Assembly (NCBI GenBank): GCA_000004985.1
Contig: GG738856.1
Strand: one strand, 5' to 3'
Length of the DNA stretch: 64,000 nucleotides
Source of the DNA: Naegleria gruberi
Lineage: Eukaryota
Made by a program: the position numbers and the translations under genes. Below are positions 1-59,065 of this stretch, in pieces. Each line of letters starts with the position of its first letter. Position 1 is the stretch's first letter. Below the pieces are notes generated by a model. That model was not told the DNA's origin, searched no databases, and saw only the letters and a program-made list of their open reading frames with translations.

Positions 1-780
1 ATAACTTTTAACAAACATCCTGGAGGAAAGGAAGTTGTTGAGAGGGAAAATTTTCAAACATTCTTAAAGGTAAGTCACAATCAGGCCTAAATCGATTAAG
101 AGAATACCACAGGAATTGGTAGGTTGGGTATAATTCCTAATTATATTGAATATTTCATATAGAACATATTATTCGGATCAACTAAAATTGAGTCTGTTAT
201 CAAATATGAACCCAGTGATTGGGCTAAATATTTCAATTCAAAAACAGAGCACTCACAACTATTGCTGGAAACTTTAATTAGAATATCCAGATGTGCTTCG
301 AGAAGAACCAATTTCAATGGTCCATTATTGGATTTGGATCTTAATTCCTCGACAAGCTCTCAAATAATTGAAAGCACCCCTAAAAATCAGATGGAAAATT
401 TGAATGAAGAAAACACAAAACAAATAGAACCTACTTCTGAGTCTAGGAACAATCGTATCGACGATTATCATAATACCTCAACCATAAGAAACTTTCAAAC
501 AAAATTAAAACCAAACTCTAGAACTTTCAAGGAAACAGCACTATTCAGTTTAAGACAGTTATTGGATGATCTGGAACTTGAAGACGACGACTTTGAAGGA
601 ACTGATATGATACCAAAGCAGAAATTTGATACCATGTGCAGTGACTACGAATTACAATTGGAAAATCTGAGATTTATCATTCAAAAAAAGAATTTGCAAA
701 TTGAAAAGCTTCAACTGGAAAAGAAACAACTAATGAAAACATTAAGCATTACCCAAGTTGAAGTAAAATTCAATGATTAA
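1..780 (+). CDS. 3' part of a gene entering from upstream. A short exon (1..70) encodes ...NKHPGGKEVVERENFQTFLK with a cytochrome-b5-like HPGG motif, followed by a GTAAGT intron (about 71..162) and a terminal coiled-coil exon (about 163..780)
   Basis: The open frame at the window start ends at GTAAGT. An acceptor ...atatag at 162 restores an open frame that continues into ORF 262..780 (stop TAA 778..780). HPGG is the cytochrome b5 heme-ligand motif, but the downstream exon does not continue a b5 fold convincingly. Confidence 0.3.
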
Positions 781-1829
781 TTACCGTTTATTTCTTGATA
801 TTTCTTGGCTTTGTACTTTCTGTAGAAAATGACACCTCCAACAATACCGCCAACAATTACACCTACAGCAATGACAGCAAAGATTATGCCAAAAGCAATA
901 CCAACAGCATTTGAAGGTTGTTCATAATAGAATACGGATGGAAGGTAAGCAAATTCAGGCAATTCTGGAATATCTTCCTTATTGACCAAGATGTTAATAC
1001 TGTACAAGCCAGAATTCAAATCTGAAACAATTCCCTTATCCAATCTACATGTTGTAACGCCATTCAAATCAGTACAACCTTGCAAGTTGATTGGCTTATT
1101 TCTGCAACCACAGACAGAAGCAATGTTAGCAGTGGCAGAGTTTGGTGACATACAAGCAACATAAGCTGGGGTAGGAACAAGTTCATTCTTACAACCTCCT
1201 TCAGTTTCTGAAGCACAATAAGTTGGAGTGCTGAATGAGAGAGCTCTGTCATTAGGTAAAAAGTTCAATCCTCTATTGTCAGTTGTAATTAAATTAACTC
1301 TTCCAGCAATTTTAGTGGTATAACCAGATATTACAATTCTAGAAACAACACCCTTAGTAACTGGTGTAATGGCAATATAATAAGCAATTTGAGAGGTACA
1401 TTTAACATTTGGACCTCCTTGACAAATTCCTGTTGGATATTGGAAAGGAGCAGTTGGTTGAATAACAAATTGTCTATCATAATTAATTGCTGATGGAACC
1501 CATTTATCACTGAAATCACAAGGTGATTCTGGAGTAGCACTACATTCCTTAATAAAGATATTAGCTCTTCCGGAACAAACTTCAATAAAACCAGACAATA
1601 GAGTCATATTCATGGTAGCCTCAACTGATTCTAATTTGTAATAGACAACATCATCATCGTCATCAAAATTATAAGTAGCCTCCTCACCAGGATAAATAAT
1701 ATTAAAATCATCAGGATCAACACCCTTGACCACCATCACGCCAATGATGGTAAGCAACATCATCATCATCAAGAAGCGAACATTAAGGGAGAATTGTTTC
1801 ATTTTTTCGAGTGAGATTTTTTTAAGCAT
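777..1829 (-). CDS. Type I membrane glycoprotein-like protein of 350 aa: N-terminal hydrophobic signal (MMMMLLTIIGVMVV), Cys-rich ectodomain with N-glycosylation sequons, one C-terminal TM (GIAFGIIFAVIAVGVIVGGIVGGVIF) and a short basic tail
   Basis: Single long ORF with an ATG start. The hydrophobic N-terminus, the C-terminal TM segment followed by YRKYKAKKYQ, and many Cys in the ectodomain are all read directly from the sequence. No family assignment was possible. Confidence 0.5.
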   Translation of the reverse strand: MLKKISLEKMKQFSLNVRFLMMMMLLTIIGVMVVKGVDPDDFNIIYPGEEATYNFDDDDDVVYYKLESVEATMNMTLLSGFIEVCSGRANIFIKECSATPESPCDFSDKWVPSAINYDRQFVIQPTAPFQYPTGICQGGPNVKCTSQIAYYIAITPVTKGVVSRIVISGYTTKIAGRVNLITTDNRGLNFLPNDRALSFSTPTYCASETEGGCKNELVPTPAYVACMSPNSATANIASVCGCRNKPINLQGCTDLNGVTTCRLDKGIVSDLNSGLYSINILVNKEDIPELPEFAYLPSVFYYEQPSNAVGIAFGIIFAVIAVGVIVGGIVGGVIFYRKYKAKKYQEINGN

Positions 1830-2838: not shown

Positions 2839-3603
2839 ATGTACTTTACTAAACCTGAAGATTATGGCTTACTCGAGAGTGGTCCAACTATGAACTATTG
2901 GATTTGGGTACCAACATTCCTTACTATTGCCTCCATGATGATCTCTGTCATTTCACAATATTTCTCCTATTTGTGGCCTGCTGTAGAATATAAGAAACAA
3001 TTCAAGAATAAGACAACTCACTATGTGTTCCTTTCATATGCTGTTAACCATACACTTTCTGCTATACTGACCACATTCACAATTGCCTATGCTAGATACT
3101 ATGGTACTTGTTATGAATCTAACATTTTTGAGATGGGTGTTCTCGAGTTGATCAAGTATATCCTTACTGTGATATTATGTGCTGTTCAACAGGTGGTCAT
3201 CTATGACTTTTTAATTTACCTTTTCCACAGAAGTTGTCATGTTAATAAGTGGATGTATATTCATATTCACAAATGGCATCACGAGAATAATACTCCACGA
3301 GGAATCTGTGATGGAATTTATGGTGATGCCTTTGAGGGAACTTTGGTGGCTTACTTTGCTGTTGGTCAAATGATGTTTTTCTCATTGCCAGTCAGTTCAA
3401 TTTGTCTCTTCTTATTGTATATTAGTTTCTTTGTCCAATTGAATCACAGTGGAAGAAAGGTTAAGATTCCATATTTCTATACTTTCAAATCCCATGCCAT
3501 TCACCATCGTCATTTCAAATATAATTTCTCTGAACACATTCCTTTGTGGGATTATTTGTTTGGAACATTGAAGTTGGACGAAATCAGTGACAATCAATTC
3601 TAA
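2839..3603 (+). CDS. Fatty acid hydroxylase / sterol desaturase superfamily membrane protein (254 aa), tandem copy 1
   Basis: Histidine boxes HRSCH (HX3H), HKWHH and HAIHHRH (HX2HH) lie in a polytopic hydrophobic protein. ATG start. Confidence 0.75.
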   Translation: MYFTKPEDYGLLESGPTMNYWIWVPTFLTIASMMISVISQYFSYLWPAVEYKKQFKNKTTHYVFLSYAVNHTLSAILTTFTIAYARYYGTCYESNIFEMGVLELIKYILTVILCAVQQVVIYDFLIYLFHRSCHVNKWMYIHIHKWHHENNTPRGICDGIYGDAFEGTLVAYFAVGQMMFFSLPVSSICLFLLYISFFVQLNHSGRKVKIPYFYTFKSHAIHHRHFKYNFSEHIPLWDYLFGTLKLDEISDNQF

Positions 3604-7927: not shown

Positions 7928-8221
7928 ATGAACAATCAATATAATCCTCAACAATTCAATCAAATGCAACAACAACAAATGATGCAAAATTATCAAAGAC
8001 AACAACAACAACAAATGATGCAAGAATTACAATTAAAGGAAGCTATGGAACTTTTCAATGAAATGGTTAGACACTGTGTTGATAAATGTGTTGAAGAACC
8101 AAAAGGAGACAAGTTAGATGATGTTGAAAAGGCTTGTATCACAAAATGTGGAGTTAAATATATTAAACACAATATGCGTGTTACGGAACGATTCCAAGCT
8201 GGTATGCAAAATCAAAAATAA
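7928..8221 (+). CDS. Small Tim (Tim9/Tim10 family) mitochondrial intermembrane-space chaperone with an N-terminal Q-rich extension
   Basis: Twin CX3C motif CVDKC-x14-CITKC. Small size of 97 aa. ATG start at 7928. Confidence 0.75.
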   Translation: MNNQYNPQQFNQMQQQQMMQNYQRQQQQQMMQELQLKEAMELFNEMVRHCVDKCVEEPKGDKLDDVEKACITKCGVKYIKHNMRVTERFQAGMQNQK

Positions 8222-8270
8222 ATTTAATCCAAATTTTGTTTTTAATTGATGAATCGGAAATGTCAAATGT

Positions 8271-8729
8271 TTAAACTTCAATGTTGAGTGGTTCTTCTGG
8301 TGGTTTGTATCCAGGTTGAGCAGGTAAATCTTTGAATGGTTGAACACCAACTTGTATTGGTATAAGATTCCAATCAATCTTTTCGGCTTCAACTCTTAAT
8401 TCCTTTGGAAGAGCTTCCAAAGCAGACTTTTTTAATTTAAGTCTTCTCTTGGCATCATTACGGGCTTTTTCTGTGATTCTCTTCTTTAATAAAGACCAAG
8501 AATTGGCCAACATTTCGTCCTTTTTAAATTGTTGTGGTGTTTTAGGAATTCTAGGTTTATCCACTGGACGAATATAGTCCTTTGCGGATTCTATTAAATA
8601 TGAAAGTTCTTGAGGTGTTGGGTTCTTTGGAATTGCGTAATTTCTAGTAGTTATTATTGATGATGAATTTATGGCCGAACATGATGAAACCTTCTTCACC
8701 AAAGAAGCCGATTTTGAAAGTGAGAGCAT
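8271..8729 (-). CDS. Mitochondrial ribosomal protein mL40-like (MRPL40 / yeast Mrpl28 family) with a presequence-like N-terminus
   Basis: The N-terminus MLSLSKSASLVKKVSS resembles a targeting peptide. The C-terminal pattern WSLLKKR...ALEALPKELRVEAEKIDWNLIPIQ...PGYKPPEEP parallels the mL40 pattern KKWSLYK...NLFPFE...YTPPIP.YQPPEG. Confidence 0.5.
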   Translation of the reverse strand: MLSLSKSASLVKKVSSCSAINSSSIITTRNYAIPKNPTPQELSYLIESAKDYIRPVDKPRIPKTPQQFKKDEMLANSWSLLKKRITEKARNDAKRRLKLKKSALEALPKELRVEAEKIDWNLIPIQVGVQPFKDLPAQPGYKPPEEPLNIEV

Positions 8730-8998: not shown

Positions 8999-9772
8999 AT
9001 GGATTTTTCGTTTGTGTCGATCGATCTTCCCATGATTGAAAAAGAATATAACAATCAAATGGCTAGTAAACAGGAAGAAATGCTTTCGGAGACAAATAAT
9101 ACAAATAATTCAGAGTATGAAATTAATGTTTCCTTAGAACTTTCTAGGGATGAGAATACAATTCAACAAGAATTACAAGAAAATAATCAACAGAGAAATT
9201 TTGAAAAGGAAGCTAGTGAATTGCTGGTATACGTGAAGGAATTATTGGGAAGAAATGAGGAACAACAGGCTTTAATTGAGGGGTTGAAACAAGATTTGGA
9301 AAAGGAACAAACTAGGAAAATACTAAATGATGTAAATTCCTGTGTTAGGCACAAGAAGGCAGTAAGCAGGTTAATTGATGATAGTTTACGAAAAGATAAG
9401 GAAATTTTACAATACAAGACTATATTTGCTCTTTTGAGGAATGCAAAGACTGAGGAAGAGGCACAGACAATTTTAAGGGATTTTGATGAGTCAGGAAAGA
9501 AAGAGCATAGGTCTCCAAACATGAATGCTAAAAGTCCTAAAAGTGTCACACCTTCCAGGTATTCCTCTCCTAAAAGCCCTCCAACAGATACCTCCCCAAA
9601 CACTAAGATTATTGAATTGAGGAAACAATTGGCAACATCAAGTTCAAGGAATAAGAAATTACAACAGGAAGTTGAAAAGTGGAAAAATTTAGCAAGTAGT
9701 TACGAGAAGATGTTTGGAATTGTAAAAGTTAGTGTATCTTTACCAAATGAAAATAATGAAACCAATGATTGA
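8999..9772 (+). CDS. Hypothetical coiled-coil protein with a C-terminal SP-rich segment (SPKSVTPSRYSSPKSPPTDTSP)
   Basis: ATG start, 257 aa, coiled-coil composition. The SPxx motifs look like phospho-sites. No family was recognised. Confidence 0.4.
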   Translation: MDFSFVSIDLPMIEKEYNNQMASKQEEMLSETNNTNNSEYEINVSLELSRDENTIQQELQENNQQRNFEKEASELLVYVKELLGRNEEQQALIEGLKQDLEKEQTRKILNDVNSCVRHKKAVSRLIDDSLRKDKEILQYKTIFALLRNAKTEEEAQTILRDFDESGKKEHRSPNMNAKSPKSVTPSRYSSPKSPPTDTSPNTKIIELRKQLATSSSRNKKLQQEVEKWKNLASSYEKMFGIVKVSVSLPNENNETND

Positions 9773-9779
9773 AATCAAA

Positions 9780-12700
9780 TTAGAAACGTCTTGTTCTTGT
9801 TCTAGTTGCTGTGGTAGTTGAACTTGTGGTCGGACTGGAGCTTGTAGCCGTGTTTGAAGAGGAAGCAGTACTAGAGGCAGTGCTGTTATTATTGGTATTA
9901 TTGTTACTTCTTGATGAGATAGTGCTAGTACTAGTGACCGTATTGTTGTTGTTTCTTGTATTGGCAGAACTGCTTGGTCTTTCGGTAGTTCTAGAAGAAA
10001 TGGAAGGACTCGAGTTATTGGAATATGGTGATGAGGTATCCTTGCCTTCATAAAAATCTTTAAAGAATTTGATTAATTGAGCAACAGAATCATTCTCCTG
10101 GGACAGCTTTTTAACAATGAGAGCAAAGTATGAATCTTCTTTGAGAACTGCAGAGCTTTCTATACCATTTAGAGCACAATATTTGGAAACCATCTTGGTT
10201 TTGAGAGTTTCACATCCTTTTCTCAAATTTTCATCCATGATTGGATTGCATACAATCTCAATGAAAACCAAATCCAATATCATGGAATTGAGTTGTAAAA
10301 CATTAATGGGATTTACCTTCAATTCAGGATCAATTTTCTTATTTTCCAGAAGATTCCAAAAGAATGGAATTTCCAACATGTGCTTGAAGTAAAGTTCCAA
10401 AAGTTTAGCTGCAATAGGTTGTTTTTGAAGTTGAGGGAAACTTTCAAACATGGATTGTGACTTTTTCACATATGATACAAACTTTGTGACAGATGAAGAA
10501 ACAACCAACTTTCCAAGATCTGTGCTTGAGAGACCTTCCGCAGTTGTGCTAGGAGAGTAGAGAGTATGAAGAGGATAATTCTTTGGTTCTCCCAATTTCA
10601 TTTGGTCCATTATAATGGCAATACGATTATCACAAAATCTCTCAATAATCTTTTGGTTAATATCGTGTGTACTCTTCAAGAAAAGAGAGAATTGAACCAT
10701 TTCAATACCAAATAATTGTTTCATCTTTTCGAAAAACTTTGGAAGTAGATGGTATCTAACACTGCTGAGGTTACAAATCATGCAACAGAATTGTTGATCA
10801 CTCAAGTGAGTATTAGCCATCTTGAAAATATCCAAAATGTATTCTTCCAGCATATCTTTGACAGGATTGACTGCTGCTTGATAAAGGAAAACATTAGCAA
10901 CTGGCTTTAAATACTCTACATATTCATTAGCAAACTTGTAGAGATATTTACCACTATCTGTTATAAATACAAGGCTACTATTGTTAGCAGAGCTTGATGT
11001 TGTTAAATTTGGTGAGTGTGAATCCCAAGCATAATTGAATCCTTTCCAACTTTCATTGGTCACTAGTTCGGTAAGATGTGAAGCCTTTAAATCCATAAAG
11101 TGTTGAATGGAAACTTCCAAGTCACGTCTAAAGAACTCTGTGAGTAAGTGTTGAACTGAGAGACCTTGAATATTCATTTTCTGTGAGTTTCTAAATGCTA
11201 TTGTGAGTGCTTGAGTCATTTTCTTGAAATCCATTTTCAAAACTGGTCCTATACCCTTTTTGAATTTCATGCAGAACTTTTCAATGGTTTGGGTGACTAC
11301 CCAATTGATGAAACCGCTGTTGTGTGCTCCGTGAGGAATATTCGAAAGGAGTTGAGCAGCCTTCTCACTCACTTTTGCTGTATTATTGGCTGTATTTCTG
11401 TGACGACTAGAAAGATTGCCAGGGTTTGATGAGGGTTCTTCTTCAACTGATTTGGAAGTTTCTTTCTTCAATCCATCTCCAAAAATGATGATATAGTTTT
11501 CGCAAACCTTGGCAACTGCATTGAAGAATCTTGCAGAAAGTTCTTCACTTAATGCCAGAGGGTCACCAATTGAAATGTGAGAAAGTACTTCATCAATCAT
11601 CTTACTTTGTGCATCCAAATAGACACTGATAGACTCCTCCTTATTGTTCAAAATGGTCAAATATTTTACAACAAGCTCACTATAGGAAGGGCTTCTAGAA
11701 TTTACAAGTTCAATAAGTAACACTTCAACAAATCGTTGAGCTGTTTGTTGGAATTTTTCAACAATTTCGACCTCAGATTCGGTATCATCTTCAATATCCT
11801 CTTTTGATTTTTTCATAGTTGGATCAGTCATGAATTGTTCAACAATATTTCTTCCAAGATCATATAATTGAATACTTGACTCAAAATCTCTGATTTGTAA
11901 GGCATTATAAAAGTCATTATTGATGTCTTTGATTTTAGTCATGACCTTATCCTTCAATTCTGATTCGCTTTGTGAACTATTTGTTGATTTTCCTTTAGAT
12001 TTGAACGAATTTGACAATTCTCCCATCAATGTTGATGTTGAATTTAAACTCACTAGCGCATCACCAACAGTACTCTTCATTTCATTCCACAAATTACCCA
12101 ACTCTACTAATTCTCCATCCATTTTTTCAATGTGTTTAGAGGTTTGAATAAAGAATCCATAGTGATTATATACATCTGTAATCAAATTGCTAGAGACAAC
12201 TTGTTCCATTTTACGAAGCACTTTTTCATTGTGACCAGAAATATTCTTACTAATTTTGGTGATTTTTTCTTGTTGAATCATTTGAAATTTCTTACCACTA
12301 ATAATAGTTTCAGCTTCATGACCAGCAACTGTTACTTCCTTTGCAATATTCTTTGTGGTTTGAACTGCCTTCTTTACAAGTTTCTTTCCAGGGTTTAAAA
12401 GTTGTTCTTTCAAATTATTATTCGAATTATTTTCCAAAAATTTACTATTTGCAGCTCCAACTATTTAAATGATATGAAATAATTTAATTCAATATTTAAA
12501 ATATTGAACAATAAGAAACAAACCTGCTGTAGGAGATGAGGGGGAAATTGGATCATCTAAATCATCATCGTCATTTAATTCATATTCTTGGTTATCCTTT
12601 TCTTGATTATCCTTTTCATTATTTGTAAATCTATTAAATACTCTCAAATTGGCCTTGTCAAAATTCAACAATTTCTTTTCCATTCTCTTGTCATATTTTG

Positions 12701-17849: not shown

Positions 17850-20393
17850 ATGCTTGGACAACAACAATCGGATTCGGAACGTAAATTTCTCTCTCGTTTG
17901 ATCAGCTCGCAAAAACAATCACAACAATATGTTGATGAGGGATTGAAAGCTAAAGCAAGAGCCTTGATTCCTGTGGATCAAATTCATGAACGAGCACAAG
18001 AAAAATACAAGATGAAAAAGGAGAATGATCCAAACTCTAATCCATTGTTGGAACGTTTCATCATTCAAGAGTTATTAAATTGGTTTAAGAGTGATTTTTT
18101 CAAGTGGGTTAATAATCCTCCTTGTGATCATTGTCAAGCAACAAATACAAACGGAATGGGAGGAGTTGCTCCTAATGCTTCGGAACAACAAAATTTAGCT
18201 GGTATTGTTGAATTGTATTCATGTCCAAATTGTAGACAAACTACCAGATTTCCTCGATATAATTATGTTGGAAAATTATTGGAAACTAGAAGAGGAAGAT
18301 GTGGTGAGTGGGCTCAATGTTTCACTTTAATGGCCTCAGCTATGGGATATGAAGCAAGATATGTTCTTGATTGGACTGATCACGTTTGGACTGAGGTTTA
18401 TTTGGATGGATGGTGTCATGCTGATTCATGTGAAGGAACACTGGATTCACCAATGATGTATGAAGCTGGATGGCAAAAGAAACTCTCTTATATTATTGCT
18501 TTCTCTGCAGAGGAAGTAATTGATGTCACAAAAAGATATACTCAAAATTTCTATTCTGACGACTTCCAACAAAGAAGAAGAGCTCAAGGCATTAGTGAAC
18601 CTTGGTTAGAAAGCACATTGAAAAACATTAATGAGCAATTGCATGTATTTATGCCACCTTACAGATCTACCTTCCTTAAAAATAGACAAACAAAGGAAAA
18701 AGATCAAATTGAACAAAAGCAAAAATCCTCGTCTGACCTCACATTGGAAGAACAAAGAGGAAGAATATCCGGCTCTGAAGAGTGGAAGAAGTCTCGAGGA
18801 GAAACAGGCAAAACATCTTGTGATGACGATAGCTGTCCTGTTCCTCAATATAAGTTAGAGCAATCTGTTGTGGATAGCCTTAAGCTCTATACCAACAAGA
18901 TTGAAGTGAATAAGAAAACAAATTCTCTATCTTGTCTAGGAAATTGTAGAGTTTTGAATGATAATTCAATCATAATTACAGAAAACAAGACTTCTCAATG
19001 CGGTTCAATAGTGTTTAATGATCAGTTGGATGTGCGTGATATGGTTATTGAATTCTCGTTCCAACTTACAAAGAATGGAACTGGAGCCGATGGGTTTGCC
19101 CTGATTATGCACTCCAATGATAATGCTGCACAAATGGGAGCTCCTGGTAGTGGAATGGGATATGAAGGAATACCAAACTCTATTGCAATCGAATTTGATA
19201 CTTACCAAACCTTCGATAGAACAAGAGATCCAGATTCAAACCATATCTCTATCCAAACAAGATATGACAAACCAAACTCTGCACATCACGACTATTCTCT
19301 CAAATGTACAACAAGTCTTCCTATTACTCTTTCAGATGGAAAAATTCACAACTGTCAACTTCTTATCCAAGGAGGGAAATTATCTATTATTTTAGAGAAG
19401 GAATATTTGATACTGAAGGATGTATCTGTTGATTTTGAGAGAGTATTTGGAAAGGGAAAGAAATTTAGAATTGGCTTAACTGCTTCAACAGGTGGTTTAT
19501 CAGAAGAACACAAAATTGTAAATTGGTCCATCCTCACAAAAACAACTAGTACTTCATATGTTCTCTTTGACCAAGTGAACATTGCAGGTGTTGAGAAAAA
19601 ACTCAAGGAATTGATTTCTCGTGAACCTAGTCCTACAATTACAGATATACAAGTTCAATCGCTTTTGAATGTGAGTGGTTGGAAAATTACAGAAATTTCC
19701 TTAGTGAATTCTATCCTCAGACAATGGAAATTCGAAAACCTCTTCCCAATTATTGACTTGTTGCGTATTGCCATTGTAAACAACAAGACTGTCTCAGATA
19801 CATTCTCCAAGCTTTTCATACAGAATCAAAAGGACCATTTATTATTGAATATCTTTAACAAGACTAGTGAGGCAACAGTTGAAAATTCGTACGCCTACTG
19901 CCTTGTATCTCTTAGACTTATTAACAATCTCTTTAAGGAAAGGTTAGGTAGAGTCTATGTTAACAAGTTCACAGACAAAATCTTGGAACAGTTGACAGAA
20001 AGCAAAATTTTCACCTTACAACCAACCTCAAAACCTGCATATAGACAAACGTACGGTGCTCTCCTTCACAATCTCTCACTATTATTTGTAAATGAGCTTC
20101 CAGATGAAGAAATGATGGTTAGGTTATTCTCCACCTCCTTTGAAATGTTGGAAAAAGAGATTTCAAGAGAAGACTTTGATGAAAGTGCTTGTCAATATGC
20201 TATCAAATCGTTAACAATACTTCTCAAGGTTGATTCAAAGGAACAACCAACCGATGAAGAGGACAGTATCATGCATGGTCTTGCCTTAAGTATGGACATT
20301 CATAGTTTAGTGTTGAAATTGAAGACAAGAAACCTTGCCAATGTGGATTTGTGTTCTCTTCTCAACTCATTAGAAAAACAGTTTGGAAATTAA
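17850..20393 (+). CDS. Peptide:N-glycanase (PNGase, transglutaminase-like core) with an internal legume-type (L-type) lectin domain and a C-terminal helical domain
   Basis: Zinc-binding CDHC...CPNC, then catalytic Cys/His/Asp context RGRCGEWAQCF, DWTDHVWTEVY and HADSCE. An L-type lectin-like segment follows: GADGFALIMHSNDNAAQMGAPGSGMGYEGIPNSIAIEFDTYQT. ATG at 17850, single exon. Confidence 0.8.
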   Translation: MLGQQQSDSERKFLSRLISSQKQSQQYVDEGLKAKARALIPVDQIHERAQEKYKMKKENDPNSNPLLERFIIQELLNWFKSDFFKWVNNPPCDHCQATNTNGMGGVAPNASEQQNLAGIVELYSCPNCRQTTRFPRYNYVGKLLETRRGRCGEWAQCFTLMASAMGYEARYVLDWTDHVWTEVYLDGWCHADSCEGTLDSPMMYEAGWQKKLSYIIAFSAEEVIDVTKRYTQNFYSDDFQQRRRAQGISEPWLESTLKNINEQLHVFMPPYRSTFLKNRQTKEKDQIEQKQKSSSDLTLEEQRGRISGSEEWKKSRGETGKTSCDDDSCPVPQYKLEQSVVDSLKLYTNKIEVNKKTNSLSCLGNCRVLNDNSIIITENKTSQCGSIVFNDQLDVRDMVIEFSFQLTKNGTGADGFALIMHSNDNAAQMGAPGSGMGYEGIPNSIAIEFDTYQTFDRTRDPDSNHISIQTRYDKPNSAHHDYSLKCTTSLPITLSDGKIHNCQLLIQGGKLSIILEKEYLILKDVSVDFERVFGKGKKFRIGLTASTGGLSEEHKIVNWSILTKTTSTSYVLFDQVNIAGVEKKLKELISREPSPTITDIQVQSLLNVSGWKITEISLVNSILRQWKFENLFPIIDLLRIAIVNNKTVSDTFSKLFIQNQKDHLLLNIFNKTSEATVENSYAYCLVSLRLINNLFKERLGRVYVNKFTDKILEQLTESKIFTLQPTSKPAYRQTYGALLHNLSLLFVNELPDEEMMVRLFSTSFEMLEKEISREDFDESACQYAIKSLTILLKVDSKEQPTDEEDSIMHGLALSMDIHSLVLKLKTRNLANVDLCSLLNSLEKQFGN

Positions 20394-20399
20394 AGTGGT

Positions 20400-22600
20400 T
20401 TAAAGTTTACTTGGGGTGTGAGTTCTATTATTGTTATTATTGTTGGTGTTCTGAATATTTCTTTGAGGTAAGGAAGGCAGAGGTGAGATTGGTTTAAAGG
20501 AGTATACCTCTTTAAGGGTCTGGTTTGGAGTATTGTAAATATTATTCAACTCCCTCTTAATGTCACATTTTACATTCAATATACATCTCAATAAAGGCTC
20601 CAATTGATCGATTGGGATTGAGAAATTAATGCTCGGAATTAAAAGTGGTTGCACATGACCTGATGTTCTGTCAGTAAGCTTGTACTTGACATTGCTTGTC
20701 ACTAGACCTACTAATTGTCCTTTAGCATTGAAGATTCCTCCTCCGCTATTTCCATCATGAACGTGGGCTGTTGTACAGACCATAGCTCTCTTATTTCCTA
20801 TATAAACAACCTTGGATACAATACCCTTAGTAATTGTACATTGTTTTATAGATCTTGAGGTATTCAATGGTTGCATCAATGGAAATCCAACAACATAAAC
20901 GTCCTCTCCCTCTTGAACATCACTAGAACATGGCAAAATTCCACTCGTTTCGATTAAGTTTGATTGCACTAATTGGCAAACACTTGATTCATGAATTTTC
21001 AGCAAAGCAACATCAAGCTTGATTTGGATTAACATAAGAATAGTGAAAATCAACTTACTGGACCAGAGCTGCAATAAAGAATCAAATCTGCCTGATGGAA
21101 TTTATGACTCTTTTCGTTATCCCTCAAATCATAATCCAATTGAACAACGATTGAAAGGTGATCAGGTAAGAAAAAGGTGCCATCCTCCTTCTGTTGCATG
21201 AAAGGTGCCATCACATGTGAATTAGTCATTATATCTACAAGACTATTGTTAAAATAAATGCATTAATCATACTTACAACCAGTATGGGTCAATAAGATTC
21301 CAGTTGCCCAAGTATTATTAATTATTATGAGTGCAATCTTATTTCTGGTAATATTGTAAATATCATTTGATTTATCCATAACTGGAAGAATAATATTAGG
21401 TGATGTTCCAATAAATTTTTCTCTCAATAGTTTTACAAAAGGATCAATGGAAATTACAATATTCAATCCATTACTCGAGGATATAGAACGAACAGGTAAG
21501 GTACAAAACTAGAATCATTTCCATCAAATGTAAATATTATATAATAAACTTACTCCTACACACTTGGTTTGTGTAATTACTCTCGCAAAGACTGGAGCTC
21601 CTTCACTTCCTGGATGTATCTGACAATCTGTAATGATGGCCAAATTTTGAGAATTATTATTGTTATTAATCTTGTTACAAATAATTCCTTTTGTTAAATG
21701 ATTGGAAAGGGAATGAGGTGAAAGTAATCCGAAAGGAGATGAAACAATGAATAAATCATCTCCCTGTGAAAGAAAATCTCCATTATATTCCACATCTGGT
21801 ATGGAAACTGCATAGTTTTTCAAACTTTCACAGTTTTTAATCTTGAAAACAGCCATAGTTGATGGTGTAATCAGTGAAGAAGGTATTTCCACAGAATTAT
21901 TTGGCATTTGTTGGTCATCAAATTTAGAATGAGGTTCCTTGAATGAGGATTTAAGAGTATGTCCAACATTCTGATTTCCCTTCCTCACCAATGGATGGCC
22001 CCAATACCAACCTTGTAATTGATTAGTCATTTGATGAATATATTTATCAGTAGTAGTATGTGAAAATAATCCCATTAATTGAATATCCGACTTGACAAAT
22101 GAGCTCACTGAATTATGAGACAGTTTAAGATTAGGCACTTTTCCAAATCGTTTCACTTGTGAAGGAAGAATTTCATTAAATAACATATCTCCATTTGGTA
22201 GAGTAATAGTCACTTTACAATTTAATTTTGGTATAATTTCCACAATACTTCCTTCTTCACTCTGTTTTGAAATATTAGAAATAAACGGAGACAATAATGT
22301 TCCACTCGTAATGACAAAATATGTATTTTCCTCCTTATTAGATTTAATTACAAATCCACTGGATGAATAACTCAAACTCTCTCCGCCAGCATCAGTCATA
22401 TCAGCAAGAAAGAAGGGAATTTGAAGATGTGATTTAGTAGAATTCGGAGCACATTGTCCAGTCATACAAATCATCACTGAATCTCCAAAGGATTTTTCTC
22501 TAATTAATTGTGAAGATCCTTCTTCTCCTCCCGATCCGAAATTATTGTGATGAATAAATAAATCCATGTTAGTACTATCACCCGAAGATCCATTAATCAT
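20400..22600 (-). CDS. Peroxisomal trypsin-like serine protease (TYSND1 / Deg15-like) with two protease-like domains and a C-terminal PTS1 (-SKL); multi-exon
   Basis: Exon ORFs are 21524..22600 (ATG at 22600, GSEGAPVF), about 21270..21466, and 20400 to about 21100 (HDGNSGGGIFNAKGQLVGLV, ending ...RTHTPSKL*). The GTAAGT donors and acceptors could be only partly resolved; one intron is about 190 nt. Confidence 0.55.
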
Positions 22601-26678: not shown

Positions 26679-27893
26679 ATGTTAACAATGCATCACTGTG
26701 TAGCACCAAAACTCGGTCGTTTGGTTTCCGATTCTAGAAATTCAATCAAATTGACATTCCGAACACTATCTCTTCTCCAACAACAACAACAACAAGGAAG
26801 AAGAAATTTTTCATCATCAATTTTGCTGAATAATAAGAGTTTTACTAATCAATTAATTATTCAAAAGATGGGTGCCATCACACCACAAATGAAAAACAAG
26901 ATGGCAAAAAAGACTAGAGTGAATAGGGAAAATCATGAATTAATTAGTGAAATGGATAATTTAGTATTGAAGGATGATTCACCTATTCTTGCTCAGTCGG
27001 ATGTTTTGAAAAAAGAATTGGTTGAATTTGTTGCAAATTCTCAAGTTAAAACAGGTTCCGAAATTATTGAACATACAGCCAATCGTCAACATTACTTTAC
27101 ACAACAAGAAATTGCCAAAATTCATGGCGTTTACAAGAATAGTGTGTTCTTCAAACATACTAAAATTAGTTTGGAAAAATACTTTTTAAATTATAATGTA
27201 CTTGTACACAAATCTAAGGAACAAAATGATTTATATTATATTGGACATCAATTATTGAAATATATACTTACTAAATATTTTAATGAAAACCTTTCGTTAG
27301 TTCAAGAATTGATGGCTGAAGGTAAAACTCTCAACATTATCAATGACAAGATTACAAAAGATTTCCAAATTAAGGAACATTTACTTGAATATTTCTTGAA
27401 TAATAATCAATTATTCTACATTTATATTCAACAAAATAACTTGAAGGAATTAGAGCCACTCTTAAAAGATATCAGTTTTACTTCGAACGATTTTATTAAC
27501 AAGTCTGCACACGAGAGAATATTCAAGGCGATTATTGGTAATATTTACATGAATATTGAATCTTTTGATATTATGATGAATCATGTTTTATATCCTTTCA
27601 TTGTTAAGGAATTTATACCTAGATTTACAGAGCTGACCGAAAGCAATCTAGCTCAAATTTCTACAAAGAAAGCGTTTGAGAAACAAATGACAATCGTTGA
27701 GCAATTTGAATACTTCCACATGAGACAATTTAAAACACTCCCAACCTATTCATCCTTAACAAACAGCTTTGAACAAACTCAAATGGTACAAATCTATTCC
27801 TCAGACCAACAACTTTTGTCAATTGGTTATGGAATTGATTACAAGACAGCTAAAGAAGATGCAGCAAGAAGAGCTATTTTACATTTTTGTTAA
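26679..27893 (+). CDS. Probable mitochondrial protein with a C-terminal dsRBD-like motif (possibly mL44 / RNase III-like mitoribosomal protein)
   Basis: The N-terminus MLTMHHCVAPKLGRLVSDSRNS resembles a targeting peptide. The C-terminal GYGIDYKTAKEDAARRAILHF matches the dsRBD helix-3 signature. Confidence 0.4.
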   Translation: MLTMHHCVAPKLGRLVSDSRNSIKLTFRTLSLLQQQQQQGRRNFSSSILLNNKSFTNQLIIQKMGAITPQMKNKMAKKTRVNRENHELISEMDNLVLKDDSPILAQSDVLKKELVEFVANSQVKTGSEIIEHTANRQHYFTQQEIAKIHGVYKNSVFFKHTKISLEKYFLNYNVLVHKSKEQNDLYYIGHQLLKYILTKYFNENLSLVQELMAEGKTLNIINDKITKDFQIKEHLLEYFLNNNQLFYIYIQQNNLKELEPLLKDISFTSNDFINKSAHERIFKAIIGNIYMNIESFDIMMNHVLYPFIVKEFIPRFTELTESNLAQISTKKAFEKQMTIVEQFEYFHMRQFKTLPTYSSLTNSFEQTQMVQIYSSDQQLLSIGYGIDYKTAKEDAARRAILHFC

Positions 27894-27923
27894 ATAAAAT
27901 TTAGTTGTGAAATATATATAAAG

Positions 27924-28887
27924 TTACAAGAAGTACATTGCCTTATTGGATGGTTGTATGTTATGGTCAATAGGAACTTCCTTAAAGCTCTTAAATTCTC
28001 TGCCCAAGTTATCATCAAAAGCTAAAATACTGGCCATGTTACCGCAACGATAACAATAGTTTGGAGCTGACCAAACTGTAACCAAGTTTTGTTCTGGGAA
28101 ATGATACTTGTATCCTTCTTGCACCAATTGATGCGCACGACAAATAAGTTCAAGATTGTTCAAATGATTGAATTCAGATGTGACACGACTTCCAAACAAC
28201 CAACCAGCACCACGAGGAGAAACAGCCCAAGTTTCAATATTTTCTGGATCAGACCACATGACATCACAGAATGGACCTTCATGTGGAATTTCTTGTCTAC
28301 GATCAATAGTTCTCATTTGATCCAAAGTACGAATATCGGGAGACAAACCTCCGTGAACACACAAAACTCTTCCATCAATAACAGCAGCAACATTGAAACA
28401 GTCAAAAACTTCACAACAATATTTCCAAGCGTTAGCATTACCATATTTACGTTGACATTCATCATAGAAACCATAGATTTGAGTAATTTGACGAGATTCG
28501 TGATTACCTATTAATAATAAGAAAACGGAATTAATATTCAAACAATATAAAATACATACCACGCAATAAAGTCATACGTTCTGGATATCTGGCCTTCAAG
28601 AGCATCAAATAAGTCAAAGTTTCCAAGCTGTTGTATCCTCTATCAACAAAATCTCCCATGAATATATATCTAGTATCTGGCAATTCACCACCTGTCTTGA
28701 ACAACTCTAACAAGTCGTGGAATTGACCGTGGATATCACCACATACTGTTACAGGGGATGAAACAGGTTGTACGTTAGATTCTTCAATCAAGATGGACTT
28801 GACCATATTACATAATTTCTTCAAATCTTGTTCAGGTAAATAATCGCACTTCTTTACCTTCTCTATCCATTGATCCAATTCAGCCAT
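27924..28887 (-). CDS. Serine/threonine protein phosphatase 6 catalytic subunit (PP6 / Sit4-type PPP), 2 exons
   Basis: Exon 1 is about 28560..28887 ([20 protein letters not shown]). A 52-nt GTATGT...AATAG intron lies at about 28508..28559. Exon 2 is 27924..28507 ([52 protein letters not shown]...YFL). The protein is closest to PP6 over PP2A or PP4, for example in the NVQPVS motif. Confidence 0.9.
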
Positions 28888-37921: not shown

Positions 37922-37945
37922 AATGTAAAATTCAACTGTAAAAAA

Positions 37946-46400: not shown

Positions 46401-47008
46401 CTAGGAAGAACAGTATCTTGACTAAAGATGAAGAAGAATTTTTGAAAGAAGCTTTCACAAAGTATTACCTTAATTCAGCTTTAGAGGCTGGAGTATCTCT
46501 ATCAGGCAATTTCTTCTCTCATTCATTCCTTTTGATTTTATTCTTCCCAAATCCATTATTCAAGCATGTTGTTCAAGCATGGTACTTGTTGAAGGATAAG
46601 ATAGATCTCGTTTTCTTTAATCCATATCCAGTGCGTAATGCTCAAAGACGTACATATGATGAGTCTTTTGGTCTGGCAGAAGTTAAATTACCAACATCTC
46701 TTTCTGCATTACTTCCAGTCTTTAGTTCTGGAAAAATTATCGAAAAAAAGACATTGAATTCAGTCTATGTTATTACTCTTTTGGTTAGAGTTTACATTGG
46801 TGATGATTTTATTGATTTGCCTATTCAATATGGAGCTAATATGGAATTGAAATTTGGTGATCAAAAGCTCACATCTGAAGTAGCAACGAAGATAATTGGA
46901 GAATCACAAAGGCAAGAAGTTCCTGAAGAAGGATCTGATAATACTCTTCTCAAGTTGTTGACCTACATTACTGCAAACTGTACAATTCCTCAATTACTAG
47001 ATATTTAA
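43425..47008 (+). CDS. Mediator complex subunit 14 (MED14/Rgr1), at least 2 exons
   Basis: The N-terminus LVLLRWSKKSKKT...DVLTTGTYPRLPHIIQQ matches the MED14 pattern LLALVKWANNAGK...DVLTTGSYPRLP. A 41-nt GTTGGT...TCTAG intron lies at about 43854..43894. Exon 2 is 43895..47008. The total is 3543 nt, in frame. Confidence 0.75.
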
Positions 47009-47038
47009 ATAGGTTTATCTATACAATTAAATATTTAT

Positions 47039-48670
47039 TTACTTTTTCTTAATGGCCTGTAAAAACATGTCCTCATCTTCTTGCAATTCACTTTCGTTAA
47101 TTACCAGTGTGAAAGTTTTTGATGATTGCTCTCTTTGTTTCTTCTTTGCTTCAATTCTTCTTTGTGCTTGTTCAGATTCTTTTCTATTATCAATAAGTGC
47201 TCGTTCTCTCTTAGTTTCTCTTTCCAACATATTGTTAATAAATTCCTTTTCTTCCAAAACTTGTTGTTTTTCTTCTCCTCTCAATCCTTCACTCACTTCC
47301 AAAAGCCTAGTTGAACCATCTCTTCCACCAACAGCAATATATTTTCCATAAACACTCAAAGTGTGAAGTCCTTGATCTGACAATCTTAGAGACAACAATG
47401 GTTTGCTTTGCTTGTAGAGATAATCCCAAACATCAAGTGTGTCCAATCACCAACAGTCATAAAGTATTTTTGAAGGAATGGATTTCTTTGAATTGAATAA
47501 ATTGGACCATGGTGATGATGATGTCCATAGTAAACTTTATCAATGGCCGTACCCTTATTCTTTCTTCTCGTACAACTCAAAACAGCACCTTGTTCAGTAC
47601 CAATCATAAATTTGGTTGGCTGTGTAGTGTTAAAATTACTGAAATAATTTAGTTCAACTTACACTGTAAGAAACATCGTAATCAATAGATTCACCTCCCA
47701 ATAAACCTTGGAGTTTGCATTCACCATTTTTATCATCAGGAATTCTAAGCTCAAGAGTTTCAGAATCGACTGGATTTGAAAGGTTTCTTGTATCCCAAGT
47801 TAGTACTTGACCATCAGTTGAAGTTGAAATAAAGAATGTTGCACTCTTACTTTGAAGCCATTGAATATCATAAATTGGATCTCTGTGACTTGTTTTAAGG
47901 TCGGAAATGAGAACTTCCTCACCTCCTTTTCTTGTGTCAAATATACAAACAACACCATTGTAGCAACCTCCTGCCACTGTAGAGTTTTCCTTAGGGTTAT
48001 ATCTGATAGATGTTAAATGAGATGATGGAAGTAAAGTCACGTCTGGTTCATTGGCATTATTCACATCCCAAACGTATGCATTTGTCGGTATTTTCTTTGT
48101 TGAACTTTGAAAATCTAGGTTGGCATAAGCTACTGCCAGCTTTGAACCATCACTAGGAAGCCAAGAGATTTTGGTTGCTGTTCTCTTATCTTGGCAAGGA
48201 TCTTTGAACACCGACACAGTTTTAACCATAGATCTTTCACTTCCAAAGTCTTGTACAGTTTCCTTAAAGTAGCTACCAAATATATTGATCGCATTATTTT
48301 GTTGAATGTAATATTCAGCGTTATCTCTTAAAGAGATGAACGAATTCAAATCTTCAATATTATTTTCAATTTTCTTGATGTATCTTTCCTTGCTTGATAA
48401 TTTTGATGTATCGACATCCTTTGGCCAACCTCCTTCATTGTGCATCATTCCTTGTTCTTTTGTTTCATGGGTCTCCGTATTAGTAAAGTGTTCAGAAAAT
48501 TCGGCAACAGCTTGAGCTCCTACACTTCTGGGTTCCCTATTAATATATTTTTGCTTAAATTCCTCACTTGGTTTGATATCAACGATCATTTCGGGTTCAG
48601 TATCCACAAAATGACCACTATATCTACCAAATTGTTTCCTCAGCTTTTTGTATACTGTTACAATATCCAT
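47039..48670 (-). CDS. Axonemal outer-arm dynein intermediate chain 2 (DNAI2 / IC2 / ODA6 WD-repeat protein), multi-exon, with an apparent internal deletion and frameshift
   Basis: ATG at about 48670. The N-terminus MDIVTVYKKLRKQFGR...NEGGWPKDV matches DNAI2 MEIVYVYVKKRSEFG...VEGGWPKDV. A 43-nt GTAAGT...CACAG intron lies at about 47611..47653. Downstream are ...LSCTRRKNKG...HHHGPIYSIQRNPF..FMTVGDWT, and then DTLDVWDYLY...LLEVSEGL in another frame. Confidence 0.75.
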
Positions 48671-55338: not shown

Positions 55339-55447
55339 TTATCAATGAAATACTCAGAATAAAAACTGAAAATGAAGTTAATATCAGAATTGAATGCAAT
55401 CTTTAGTTTCCGTTTTCCAAAAACATTTTTTATGAATTTTAAAAAAA

Positions 55448-56314
55448 ATGTCAGACCCAACATTGTGGGATTCTCTCATTCAAATTATTCAACTCGAGAA
55501 GGAATTGATCAATGTGATCATTTCTCATGAAAATCATCTTCAACAAACCGGAAGTGAACAAGTGGTTGAATATTATGAAAAATTAGTGGACGAATATTTG
55601 AGATTTATTAAAGATCATTTCATGATTAATAACAAATTCGGAAATGGAGTGGATTATTGTTCATCATTTCTTGAAAGATATTACAAAATTAAAAGAGGAG
55701 AATTATCCAATCAAGAGAAATATAATCAATTTCATGAATTGTTTCTAATGGTGAAGAGACAATCATCTGAAGAATTTATTAAACATGTATTAACAACAGA
55801 GGAAGAACATTCATCATTTATTACTACTGATTCGGAGGCATCAACCAATAATGTTGGATGGAATAAGAAATGTTTAGCATTTGAAAGTAAGATGAAGAAT
55901 AGAATTTTAACATTAGCCAATCAGCAATATTCAATGGTTTATGGAATTGCCTCTCATGAATGTCCTCTCTCTAATACTCAACAATCAAGGAAGGATCTTG
56001 ATGAGAGCTCCATACTAATGGCATGCATTTATGCTTGTATGATATTGCATGAGGAAAATTTGCCAATTCAATCTGATTCAATTTTGAAAATTGTTCAAGC
56101 TTCAAATATTGAGATACCCTCTGCGTATGCTTCACTGGTGGCCAAGTATTTAAAGAATCATTCATTGAAGGGTATTATTGATAATTTGCAAGAAGAGGAT
56201 ATCAATGTTGCACCATCTACACCACATGATAATCATCAATCAGTTCCATATGGTATAGAGCTTTCTGAATACGGAATAGATGAAAACATAGATATCTTTG
56301 GTGATATGTTTTAA
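55448..56314 (+). CDS. Protein of 288 aa whose C-terminal ~100 residues form a ribosomal acidic stalk protein P1/P2-like domain; the N-terminal ~190 aa are of unknown function
   Basis: The C-terminal ILMACIYACMILHEENLPIQSDSILKIVQASNIEIPSAYASLVAKYL...IDIFGDMF aligns with ribosomal P1 [46 protein letters not shown]...MGFGLFD. Confidence 0.5.
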   Translation: MSDPTLWDSLIQIIQLEKELINVIISHENHLQQTGSEQVVEYYEKLVDEYLRFIKDHFMINNKFGNGVDYCSSFLERYYKIKRGELSNQEKYNQFHELFLMVKRQSSEEFIKHVLTTEEEHSSFITTDSEASTNNVGWNKKCLAFESKMKNRILTLANQQYSMVYGIASHECPLSNTQQSRKDLDESSILMACIYACMILHEENLPIQSDSILKIVQASNIEIPSAYASLVAKYLKNHSLKGIIDNLQEEDINVAPSTPHDNHQSVPYGIELSEYGIDENIDIFGDMF

Positions 56315-56322
56315 CTTGTCAT

Positions 56323-59039: not shown

Positions 59040-59065
59040 AAGCAAGTAAGAATAAATTAAATAGT

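What the first reader, a model, noticed from the sequence alone, without database searches (positions are those of the whole stretch)
777..780. Convergent genes with overlapping or abutting stop codons, implying overlapping 3' UTRs throughout the window
The plus gene ending TAA at 778..780 and the minus gene whose stop codon is the complement of 777..779 share a single TTAA. Similar arrangements recur: stops 6 nt apart at 20391-20393 and 20400-20402 (PNGase and TYSND1-like), about 7 nt at 9772/9780, 8 nt at 56314/56323, and 26-30 nt at 27893/27924, 47008/47039 and 59039/59066. With essentially no room for non-overlapping 3' UTRs or terminators, mRNA 3' ends must overlap in antisense. This is an extreme compaction feature with consequences for polyadenylation signals and possible natural-antisense regulation.
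Basis: seen in the sequence. Interest (0 to 1): 0.5.

Follow-up and report, generated by a model that had tools for sequence, protein, structure and literature searches.

The report
Abutting convergent gene ends in Naegleria
In this very gene-dense stretch of the amoeba Naegleria gruberi, most genes that face each other tail-to-tail stop within 30 bases of one another (one pair shares a TTAA), so their mRNA ends almost certainly overlap; this is real but is an expected result of genome compaction and tiny 3' UTRs, not a new kind of system.

Summary
The window is Naegleria gruberi nuclear DNA, with about 41 genes in 64 kb and 83% of bases inside long ORFs. Eleven of the 14 stops were checked against deposited proteins, ortholog C-termini, a conserved C-terminal -SKL peroxisomal signal, or two independent strain contigs; three (9772+, 9780-, 56314+) rest on ORF length alone. 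Convergent gaps (median 30 nt) are shorter than tandem (154) and divergent (459) gaps. N. lovaniensis shows the same habit (-4 as a shared TTAG, then 7, 8, 40, 60, 63 nt), often at different gene pairs, so it is a property of the genome and not of particular pairs. Published nanopore data give N. gruberi a median 3' UTR of 39 nt, with AAUAAA 15-20 nt before cleavage. With the signals seen here, often embedded in the stop codon, mature mRNAs should overlap by roughly 10-40 nt. No transcript data could be reached, so overlap is inferred and antisense regulation is untested. This is a known kind of architecture (yeast, microsporidia, Giardia) in an unusually tight form.

The parts
1..780 (+). 3' part of a coiled-coil protein gene whose 5' end lies outside the window; stop TAA at 778-780
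   Evidence: The frame is open over 163-780. P0132 from a related strain is 97% identical and ends at the same ...VEVKFND.
777..1829 (-). Predicted membrane protein gene (N. gruberi 'predicted protein', P0121); its stop TAA is the complement of 777-779 and shares TTAA with the + gene
   Evidence: P0121 is 100% identical and ends ...EINGN, which is the ORF end. The same 4-nt overlap is called on the independent contig L007.
787..792 (-). AATAAA inside the last codons of the - gene, 12 nt before its stop; predicts a 3' UTR of about 0-9 nt lying entirely antisense to the + gene
8219..8273 (.). Tim10/DDP gene stop (8219-8221, embedded in AATAAA) facing the - ORF stop (8271-8273); 49-nt gap
   Evidence: Pfam zf-Tim10_DDP, E=2.8e-20; signal positions. 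The - partner (152 aa) is unverified.
9770..9782 (.). + stop TGA (9770-9772), a 7-nt spacer, and the - stop TAA (9780-9782) of the Exo84-like gene; no canonical hexamer on either side
   Evidence: Both stops are supported by ORF length only.
20389..20411 (.). PNGase stop TAA (20391-20393) embedded in ATTAAA (20389-20394), a 6-nt spacer, the stop of the trypsin-like protease (20400-20402), and its -SKL (PTS1) codons (20403-20411)
   Evidence: PNGase is 100% identical to the deposited protein. Trypsin_2 hit. -SKL* end in N. gruberi and N. lovaniensis. Signal.
27891..27926 (.). NAEGRDRAFT_65033 stop (27891-27893) overlapping AATAAA (27893-27898), a 30-nt spacer, and the PPP-phosphatase stop (27924-27926)
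   Evidence: Exact match to XP_002679729. Both C-termini are conserved to the last residue in N. lovaniensis, where the gap is 63 nt.
47006..47041 (.). MED14 stop (47006-47008), ATTAAA (47026-47031, + strand), AATAAA on the - strand (47034-47039) overlapping the WD40 gene stop (47039-47041); 30-nt spacer
   Evidence: Pfam Med14 and WD40 hits. The pair is conserved in Naegleria sp. contig L005 with a 32-nt gap. Signals.
56312..56327 (.). + stop TAA (56312-56314), an 8-nt spacer, and the NAEGRDRAFT_65049 stop (56323-25) embedded in AATAAA on the - strand (56322-56327)
   Evidence: Exact match to XP_002679868. The junction is identical in strain contig L006. The + stop is supported by its 292-codon ORF only.
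59037..59070 (.). B-box paralog stop TAG (59037-59039), AATAAA on the + strand (59051-59056), and AATAAA on the - strand (59065-59070) overlapping the formin stop (59066-59068); 26-nt spacer with two signals facing each other
   Evidence: Formin P0123 ends ...PGIEK, which is the ORF end. The junction is identical in L006, where the + gene is called as 337 aa. Signals.

Best explanation
This is ordinary Naegleria gruberi chromosomal DNA in a very gene-dense region. Spacers between tail-to-tail genes have shrunk almost to nothing because they carry no promoter and because Naegleria's 3'-end machinery needs very little sequence. An AAUAAA hexamer can sit on or just beside the stop codon, and cleavage follows 15-20 nt later. 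Since the spacers (-4 to 30 nt) are shorter than two such 3' UTRs, each mRNA ends inside its neighbour's 3' UTR, stop codon or last codons. Mature mRNAs of convergent neighbours should therefore be complementary over roughly 10-40 nt, and RNA polymerase II must terminate inside the neighbouring gene. Shown here: the geometry, the reality of 11 of the 14 gene ends, the position of the hexamers, and recurrence of the pattern in related genomes. Inferred: the actual cleavage sites and hence the transcript overlap. The tightness is most likely a passive outcome of deletion-driven compaction tolerated by a compact poly(A) signal, and not a device selected at particular pairs.
For: The organism is N. 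gruberi, with 100% identical deposited proteins. Density is high: 83% of bases lie in ORFs of >=100 aa and there are 41 genes. Gap medians are ordered convergent 30 < tandem 154 < divergent 459 nt. That is the same order as in yeasts (158/405/517; PMC6993858), but the convergent class is about 5 times tighter. AATAAA behaves as a selected signal: 82 copies lie antisense to ORFs against 12 in sense, and 8 of those 12 overlap or sit just before a stop (binomial p=6e-14). This matches the published scarcity of AAUAAA in N. gruberi CDS. Ten of 41 stops are embedded in AATAAA. In tight pairs every canonical hexamer starts at or before +18 from the stop (8/8, against 9/18 for other genes; Fisher one-sided p=0.016). 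Published UTR and cleavage parameters give the predicted overlaps. The pattern belongs to the genome and not to the pairs. N. lovaniensis has gaps of -4 (TTAG), 7, 8, 40, 60 and 63 nt. Two N. gruberi tight pairs are conserved as pairs with still-short gaps (63 and 32 nt). Others have different partners, and gene content between the formin and PSMD5 differs between species, yet the junctions there are equally tight.
Against: No transcript 3' ends were available, so overlap is a prediction. Six of the 14 tight gene ends have no AATAAA or ATTAAA within 150 nt downstream, so their cleavage sites cannot be predicted, although 12 of 27 other gene ends also lack one within 100 nt. The stops at 9772+, 9780- and 56314+ have no support beyond ORF length. 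The window is denser than the N. gruberi average as I recall it (about 58% coding), so it may overstate the genome-wide picture. Strain contigs show fewer substitutions within 100 nt of tight junctions than elsewhere in CDS (2 against about 7 expected, p=0.02). This could hint at extra constraint, but it is confounded by indel-rich low-complexity regions.
Confidence: 0.75

Rival explanations
1. Gene-model artefact: the ORFs run past the true stops (3'-terminal introns, pseudogenes, chance ORFs), so the real genes are further apart.
For: Several partners have no Pfam hit. Four ORFs from tight pairs were not found as exact deposited sequences. The stops at 9772+, 9780- and 56314+ have no independent support.
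Against: Eleven of the 14 ends are supported independently by deposited protein C-termini, ortholog conservation at or near the last residue, a C-terminal -SKL in two species, or gene calls on strain contigs. ORFs of 135-1084 codons are far beyond chance in 33% GC DNA. In N. lovaniensis the error ran the other way: the deposited model was clipped, and that hid a real TTAG overlap.
Confidence: 0.03
2. The DNA is abutting but mature mRNAs do not meaningfully overlap, either because these genes use ultrashort UTRs (signals inside their own last codons) or because partners are expressed at different times, such as amoeba versus flagellate stages.
For: The 777- gene has AATAAA 12 nt before its stop, predicting a UTR of about 0-9 nt. 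For 27893+, 47039- and 59066- the predicted cleavage falls short of the partner's stop. The window contains stage-specific genes such as ODAD1.
Against: At gaps of -4 to 8 nt, even a 10-nt UTR on one side enters the partner's stop or CDS. Apart from 777-, no tight-pair gene has AATAAA or ATTAAA starting between 45 and 5 nt upstream of its stop's end. The published median UTR is 39 nt, or 22 nt with a dual-use stop. Transcription must in any case continue past the cleavage site.
Confidence: 0.12
3. The tight tail-to-tail spacing is selected: the junctions act as compact bidirectional 3'-end or termination modules, or as sense-antisense regulatory pairs, as proposed for yeast convergent genes.
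For: Yeast mRNA duplexes form preferentially at short convergent spacers and convergent orientation is conserved (PMC6993858). Yeast 3'-UTR overlap mediates anti-regulation (PMC3900390). Two pairs keep short gaps across Naegleria species. Face-to-face AATAAA/TTTATT occurs at 59051-59070. Strain substitution density near junctions is slightly reduced.
Against: Partners differ between species while tightness persists. There is no consistent palindromic signal architecture across junctions. Dual-use stops are not enriched in tight pairs (4/14 against 6/27, p=0.71). Tandem gaps are also very short (down to 24 nt), which points to general compaction.
Confidence: 0.1

Closest known systems
Convergent yeast genes with overlapping 3' UTRs and mRNA duplexes (S. 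cerevisiae and other Saccharomycotina; PMC3900390, PMC6993858)
   Same: Tail-to-tail protein-coding neighbours in a compact genome have spacers shorter than the sum of their two 3' UTRs. Convergent is the shortest class of intergenic spacer.
   Different: The yeast convergent median is about 158 bp with much longer UTRs and overlaps. Here the median is 30 nt and stop codons can share bases. In yeast the overlap and its regulatory effects are shown experimentally, whereas here overlap is only inferred.
'Dual-use' stop codon / poly(A) signals and ultrashort 3' UTRs in Giardia and N. gruberi (PMC11529991)
   Same: AAUAAA overlaps the stop codon at 10 of 41 gene ends in this window, including 4 ends in tight pairs. 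This is the organism in which the paper measured a 22-nt median UTR for such sites.
   Different: That paper does not discuss neighbouring genes, convergent spacing or antisense overlap. The link between dual-use signals and abutting convergent genes is my inference.
Overlapping transcription in microsporidia and nucleomorphs (Williams et al. 2005 and Corradi et al. 2008, as cited in PMC3629993)
   Same: Compaction forces transcripts to begin or end inside neighbouring genes.
   Different: Those are highly reduced parasite or endosymbiont genomes, in some of which 3'-end control appears relaxed. Naegleria is a free-living amoeba with a roughly 41-Mb genome (my recollection), introns, and a canonical, strongly policed AAUAAA signal.
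Arabidopsis convergent pairs sharing a polyadenylation region (PMC3032780)
   Same: Sense and antisense transcripts of convergent genes are processed within one shared short region.
   Different: The plant cases are individual loci with long overlaps, whereas here it is the majority arrangement in the window. I did not read this paper beyond the abstract.

Membership tests
Convergent cis-natural-antisense gene pairs (3'-overlapping mRNAs) | Two protein-coding genes on opposite strands with their 3' ends facing each other | tested here: met
Convergent cis-natural-antisense gene pairs (3'-overlapping mRNAs) | Mature transcripts share complementary sequence | not testable with these tools
   No N. 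gruberi transcript contigs could be reached. Overlap of 10-36 nt is predicted from published cleavage distances.
Convergent cis-natural-antisense gene pairs (3'-overlapping mRNAs) | A regulatory consequence, such as anticorrelated expression, duplexes or small RNAs | not testable with these tools
   This needs expression or small-RNA data.
Dual-use stop codon / poly(A) signal | AAUAAA (or AUUAAA) shares bases with the stop codon | tested here: met
   AATAAA shares bases with the stops at 27893+, 47039-, 56323- and 59066-, and ATTAAA with the stop at 20393+. Across the window, 10 of 41 stops are embedded in AATAAA.
Dual-use stop codon / poly(A) signal | Cleavage about 15-20 nt downstream, giving a UTR of about 22 nt at those genes | not testable with these tools
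   This is published genome-wide, but per-gene data are not held.
Overlapping protein-coding genes (shared sense codons) | Sense codons of two genes occupy the same nucleotides | tested here: not met
   At TTAA (777-780) only the two stop codons overlap, and each stop shares one base with the partner's last sense codon. No sense-sense overlap occurs at any junction.
Kinetoplastid-type polycistronic gene clusters (the other Discoba architecture) | Long same-strand gene runs with rare strand switches | tested here: not met
   There are 11 convergent and 10 divergent junctions among 40. This agrees with about 2 genes per directon reported for Heterolobosea.

The most novel reading that the evidence does not exclude
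Across the genus Naegleria, near-zero tail-to-tail spacing is maintained by selection. In this reading, stop-embedded AAUAAA signals of facing genes form a roughly 30-nt bidirectional 3'-end module, and the resulting 10-40-nt complementary mRNA tails couple the expression or decay of neighbours genome-wide.
Probability: 0.1. Interest if true: 0.6.

Novelty: new member of a known kind. Interest (0 to 1): 0.3.

Why it matters
If the window is representative, a majority of convergent Naegleria gene pairs produce mRNAs with complementary 3' tails, and polymerases must terminate inside the neighbouring gene. This matters in three practical ways. Annotation pipelines that forbid overlap clip real C-termini, as with the N. 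lovaniensis peroxisomal protease that lost its -SKL signal. Unstranded RNA-seq will mis-assign reads at gene ends. Knock-ins or 3' tagging in the pathogen N. fowleri and its relatives may disrupt the neighbour's 3'-end formation. It also offers a free-living, intron-containing eukaryote with a canonical AAUAAA signal in which to study how 3'-end formation works with almost no intergenic DNA. Conceptually it extends a known compaction phenomenon and does not reveal a new one.

Tried and rejected
1. Direct transcript evidence could not be obtained. Exact-protein look-ups for N. gruberi genes found no contigs. Two metagenome scans with junction sequences found nothing. The nanopore paper's supplements are not held, and the 2010 genome paper is not held.

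2. Only one canonical hexamer lies in a partner CDS within 150 nt (AATAAA at +119 from the 59066- stop). Where present, signals sit on or near the gene's own stop.

3. Dual-use stops are not enriched in tight pairs: 4/14 against 6/27, p=0.71.

4. There is no common palindromic 'bidirectional terminator' motif. Face-to-face AATAAA/TTTATT occurs at 59051-59070 and ATTAAA/TTTATT at 47026-47039, but not at the other junctions.

5. The wide convergent gaps (146, 161 and 573 nt) are not explained by ncRNA genes. The only tRNA or Rfam hit is tRNA-Lys at 35801-35873.

6. The absence of a canonical hexamer at six tight ends is not special, because 12 of 27 other gene ends also lack one within 100 nt.

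7. Extra sequence constraint at junctions between strains is only weakly supported (p=0.02) and is confounded by indels elsewhere.

8. Literature searches found no Naegleria-specific description of overlapping convergent gene ends.

Full report
**Identity and observation.** The window is nuclear DNA of the heterolobosean amoeba Naegleria gruberi. The 847-aa ORF at 17850-20393 is 100% identical to the deposited N. gruberi peptide N-glycanase on a 602-kb scaffold. The next best hits are N. lovaniensis (58%) and Willaertia magna (50%). The + ORF stops at 778-780 and the - ORF stop is the complement of 777-779, a shared TTAA. The other gaps are 6 nt (20393/20400), 7 nt (9772/9780), 8 nt (56314/56323), 30 nt (27893/27924 and 47008/47039) and 26 nt (59039/59066). 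I added one more short junction, where the Tim10/DDP gene ending at 8221 faces a - ORF ending at 8271, a 49-nt gap.

**Are the gene ends real?** Three-prime ends of ORFs are unambiguous unless a terminal intron exists, so I checked them independently.
- Deposited N. gruberi proteins end exactly at the ORF stops for 777- (P0121...EINGN), 20393+ (PNGase, full length), 27893+ (NAEGRDRAFT_65033, exact), 56323- (NAEGRDRAFT_65049, exact) and 59066- (formin...PGIEK).
- The 27893+/27924- C-termini align to the last residue in N. lovaniensis. The 47039- C-terminus does so in a Logan-assembled Naegleria contig, where the 47008+ ortholog runs about six codons further.
- The + member of the flagship pair, whose 5' end is outside the window, matches a 97%-identical protein from a related strain that ends at the same ...VEVKFND.
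- The trypsin-like protease ends in -SKL*, a canonical C-terminal peroxisomal signal that must be terminal.
- The 59039+ gene is called as a 337-aa protein on strain contig L006.
- The stops at 9772+, 9780- and 56314+ have no support beyond ORFs of 259-894 codons.
- Two independent metagenome contigs (ERZ929261), 97-98.5% identical to the window, carry the TTAA, 8-nt and 26-nt junctions base for base. An independent gene caller reported the same 4-nt overlap there.

Mis-assembly and mis-annotation are therefore excluded for the junctions and ends that could be checked.

**Is it more than chance?** A curated map gives 41 genes in 64 kb, and 83% of bases lie in ORFs of at least 100 aa.

| Junction class | n | Gaps (nt) | Median (nt) |
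|---|---|---|---|
| Convergent | 11 | -4, 6, 7, 8, 26, 30, 30, 49, 146, 161, 573 | 30 |
| Tandem (stop to ATG) | 19 | 24 to 790, plus one -43 that is a modelling artefact | 154 |
| Divergent | 10 | 269 to 1009 | 459 |

Convergent gaps are shorter than tandem gaps (Mann-Whitney p=0.008) and divergent gaps (p=0.0007). Seven of 11 gaps at or below 30 nt has p=5e-5 under an exponential model with the window's mean spacer of 261 nt. The ordering is the one known from yeasts (158/405/517 bp; PMC6993858), but the convergent class is about five times tighter.

**Three-prime-end signals.** Nanopore direct-RNA work on N. gruberi (PMC11529991) established several points. AAUAAA is the poly(A) signal and lies about 15-20 nt upstream of cleavage. 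The median 3' UTR is 39 nt. About 11-13% of stops overlap AAUAAA ('dual use'), and those genes have a median UTR of 22 nt. AAUAAA is rare in coding sequence, at 1,238 copies genome-wide.

The window shows this directly:
- AATAAA occurs 82 times antisense to ORFs but only 12 times in sense, and 8 of those 12 overlap or immediately precede a stop codon (binomial p=6e-14).
- Ten of 41 stops are embedded in AATAAA.
- Eight of the 14 tight gene ends have a canonical hexamer, always at or before +18 from the stop: 777- at -15, 20393+ (ATTAAA on the stop), 27893+, 47039-, 56323- and 59066- on the stop, 47008+ at +18 and 59039+ at +12.
- Among other genes with a canonical hexamer, only 9 of 18 are that close (Fisher one-sided p=0.016).
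- Six tight ends have no canonical hexamer within 150 nt. This is not unusual, because 12 of 27 other ends lack one within 100 nt.
Only one canonical hexamer lies in a partner's CDS (119 nt past the 59066- stop). It is the predicted cleavage sites, not the signals, that fall in the partner.

**Predicted overlap (inference).** I placed cleavage 15-25 nt after the start of each hexamer.
- The PNGase mRNA alone should run 4-14 nt into the protease's stop and -SKL codons.
- The 56323- mRNA should run 2-12 nt into its partner.
- The 777- mRNA should run 4-13 nt into its partner.
- The pairs 47008/47039 and 59039/59066 should overlap by 16-36 nt and 10-30 nt.
- At 27893/27924, overlap requires only a UTR of more than 6-16 nt on the phosphatase side.
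- At 9772/9780, any two UTRs summing to more than 7 nt overlap.

Overlap of mature mRNAs is thus very likely at most junctions, but it is short. Polymerase II must in any case terminate inside the neighbouring gene.

**Comparative evidence.** The window is syntenic with one N. lovaniensis contig. That species shows tail-to-tail gaps of 7, 8, 40, 60 and 63 nt in its deposited models.

It also shows a sixth junction that the annotation hid. The trypsin-like ORF continues, with homology to N. gruberi, past the called end (14220) to a stop at 14144-14146, and it ends ...ASKL*. That stop shares TTAG with the + ORF stop at 14145-14147.

Two N. gruberi tight pairs are conserved as pairs with still-short gaps (27893/27924 at 63 nt; 47008/47039 at 32 nt in L005). 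The flagship pair and the PNGase/protease pair have different partners in N. lovaniensis. The gene content between the formin and PSMD5 differs between the two species, yet the new junctions are just as tight. The few Willaertia junctions sampled are looser (97, 108 and 651 nt).

Tightness is therefore a property of Naegleria genomes that re-forms at new junctions, and not a conserved feature of particular pairs. Tandem spacers as short as 24 nt (ODAD1 to the next gene) show that compaction is general.

**Mechanism.** The best-supported account is passive. Deletion-driven compaction removes convergent spacers because they contain no promoter. The organism tolerates this because its poly(A) signal is a single strong hexamer that can be written into the stop codon or the last codons and is policed by depletion from sense coding sequence. 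The consequence is short complementary mRNA tails and termination within the neighbour. I give this about 0.75.

The rivals are:
- Gene-model artefact (0.03), which is contradicted by the C-terminal checks.
- Abutting DNA without real mRNA overlap, through ultrashort UTRs or mutually exclusive expression (0.12).
- Selected bidirectional or regulatory modules as proposed in yeast (0.10). This is weakly hinted at by lower strain divergence near junctions (2 substitutions against about 7 expected, p=0.02, confounded by indels). It is disfavoured by partner turnover, by the lack of a common motif architecture, and by the lack of enrichment of dual-use stops in tight pairs (p=0.71).

**Comparison with known systems.** Functionally this is the convergent 3'-overlap architecture known from yeast (PMC3900390, PMC6993858), from individual Arabidopsis loci (PMC3032780), and from the overlapping transcription of compacted microsporidian and nucleomorph genomes (cited in PMC3629993). 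It is combined with the dual-use stop/poly(A) signals already described for Giardia and N. gruberi (PMC11529991).

It is not gene overlap in the coding sense, because only stop codons share bases. It is also not the polycistronic architecture of other Discoba, given 21 strand switches among 40 junctions and about 2 genes per directon for Heterolobosea. I found no paper describing convergent-gene overlap in Naegleria, and the nanopore paper does not mention neighbours.

**Verdict.** The kind of feature is known, so this is a new and unusually tight instance of a known architecture. It is of modest interest (0.3), mainly for annotation practice, for read assignment at gene ends, and as a system for studying minimal 3'-end formation. 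The decisive test already exists as public data (GSE260731) but could not be reached with these tools.

Noticed in passing
L001:14144-14230 (N. lovaniensis PYSW02000010.1): The deposited N. lovaniensis model of the trypsin-like protease ends at 14220. The ORF, with homology to N. gruberi, continues to 14144 and ends ...ASKL*, so the public model lacks the peroxisomal targeting signal. It was probably clipped to avoid overlap with the neighbouring gene.
   Followed up: yes
window 37917-37948: The ODAD1 (outer dynein arm docking) gene stops at 37919-37921 inside AAATAAA, and the next ORF (283 aa, no Pfam hit) starts at an ATG at 37946. That start is only 24 nt downstream and in the same reading frame. 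The promoter and 5' UTR of the downstream gene would have to lie inside ODAD1, unless this is read-through or a single gene.
   Followed up: partly
window, whole: AATAAA shows extreme strand asymmetry: 82 copies antisense to ORFs, and 12 in sense of which 8 are at stops. ATTAAA shows none (41 sense, 38 antisense). This is a strong annotation-free indicator of gene strand and gene ends in this genome.
   Followed up: yes
window 2839-3603 and 4394-5158: There is a tandem duplicate pair of 254-aa C-5 sterol desaturase genes, whose proteins fall in the same 90% cluster (XP_002679721 and XP_002679722). An unverified 85-aa antisense ORF (3630-3887) starts 26 nt after the first copy's stop.
   Followed up: partly
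window 56323-57675 (-) and 58026-59039 (+): Two paralogous B-box proteins with related C-terminal regions sit head to head across a 350-nt divergent spacer. That spacer is the most variable segment between strains (7% divergence), including a 19-nt indel at 58010 just upstream of the ATG.
   Followed up: partly
window 50728-59039 versus L004:13829-20203 and L005:13421-16536: Gene content between the formin and PSMD5 differs among Naegleria species. N. gruberi has two B-box genes, a 288-aa gene, a CD59-like gene and a BTB/TLDc gene. N. lovaniensis has a 515-aa gene, an FMN_bind_2 gene and an F-box gene. This is a local hotspot of gene turnover within otherwise conserved synteny.
   Followed up: partly
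window 35801-35873 (+): tRNA-Lys(CTT) lies 82 nt downstream of the stop of the F-box/Ras-like gene. It is the only tRNA or Rfam hit in the 64 kb.
   Followed up: no
window 8219-8221, 24343-24345, 37919-37921, 50728-50730, 56323-56325, 59066-59068, 63384-63386: Seven genes share the same AA-TAA-A dual-use layout. This forces the last sense codon to end in AA, so it encodes Lys, Glu or Gln (for example formin ...IEK and B-box ...SFK). The poly(A) signal may therefore constrain the C-terminal residue.
   Followed up: no
window 26051-26431 (+) versus 24343-26124 (-): A 121-127-codon + ORF overlaps the 5' end of the proline dehydrogenase ORF by about 74 nt in a divergent arrangement. It is unclear whether this is a real small gene or an upstream or shadow ORF.
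   Followed up: no
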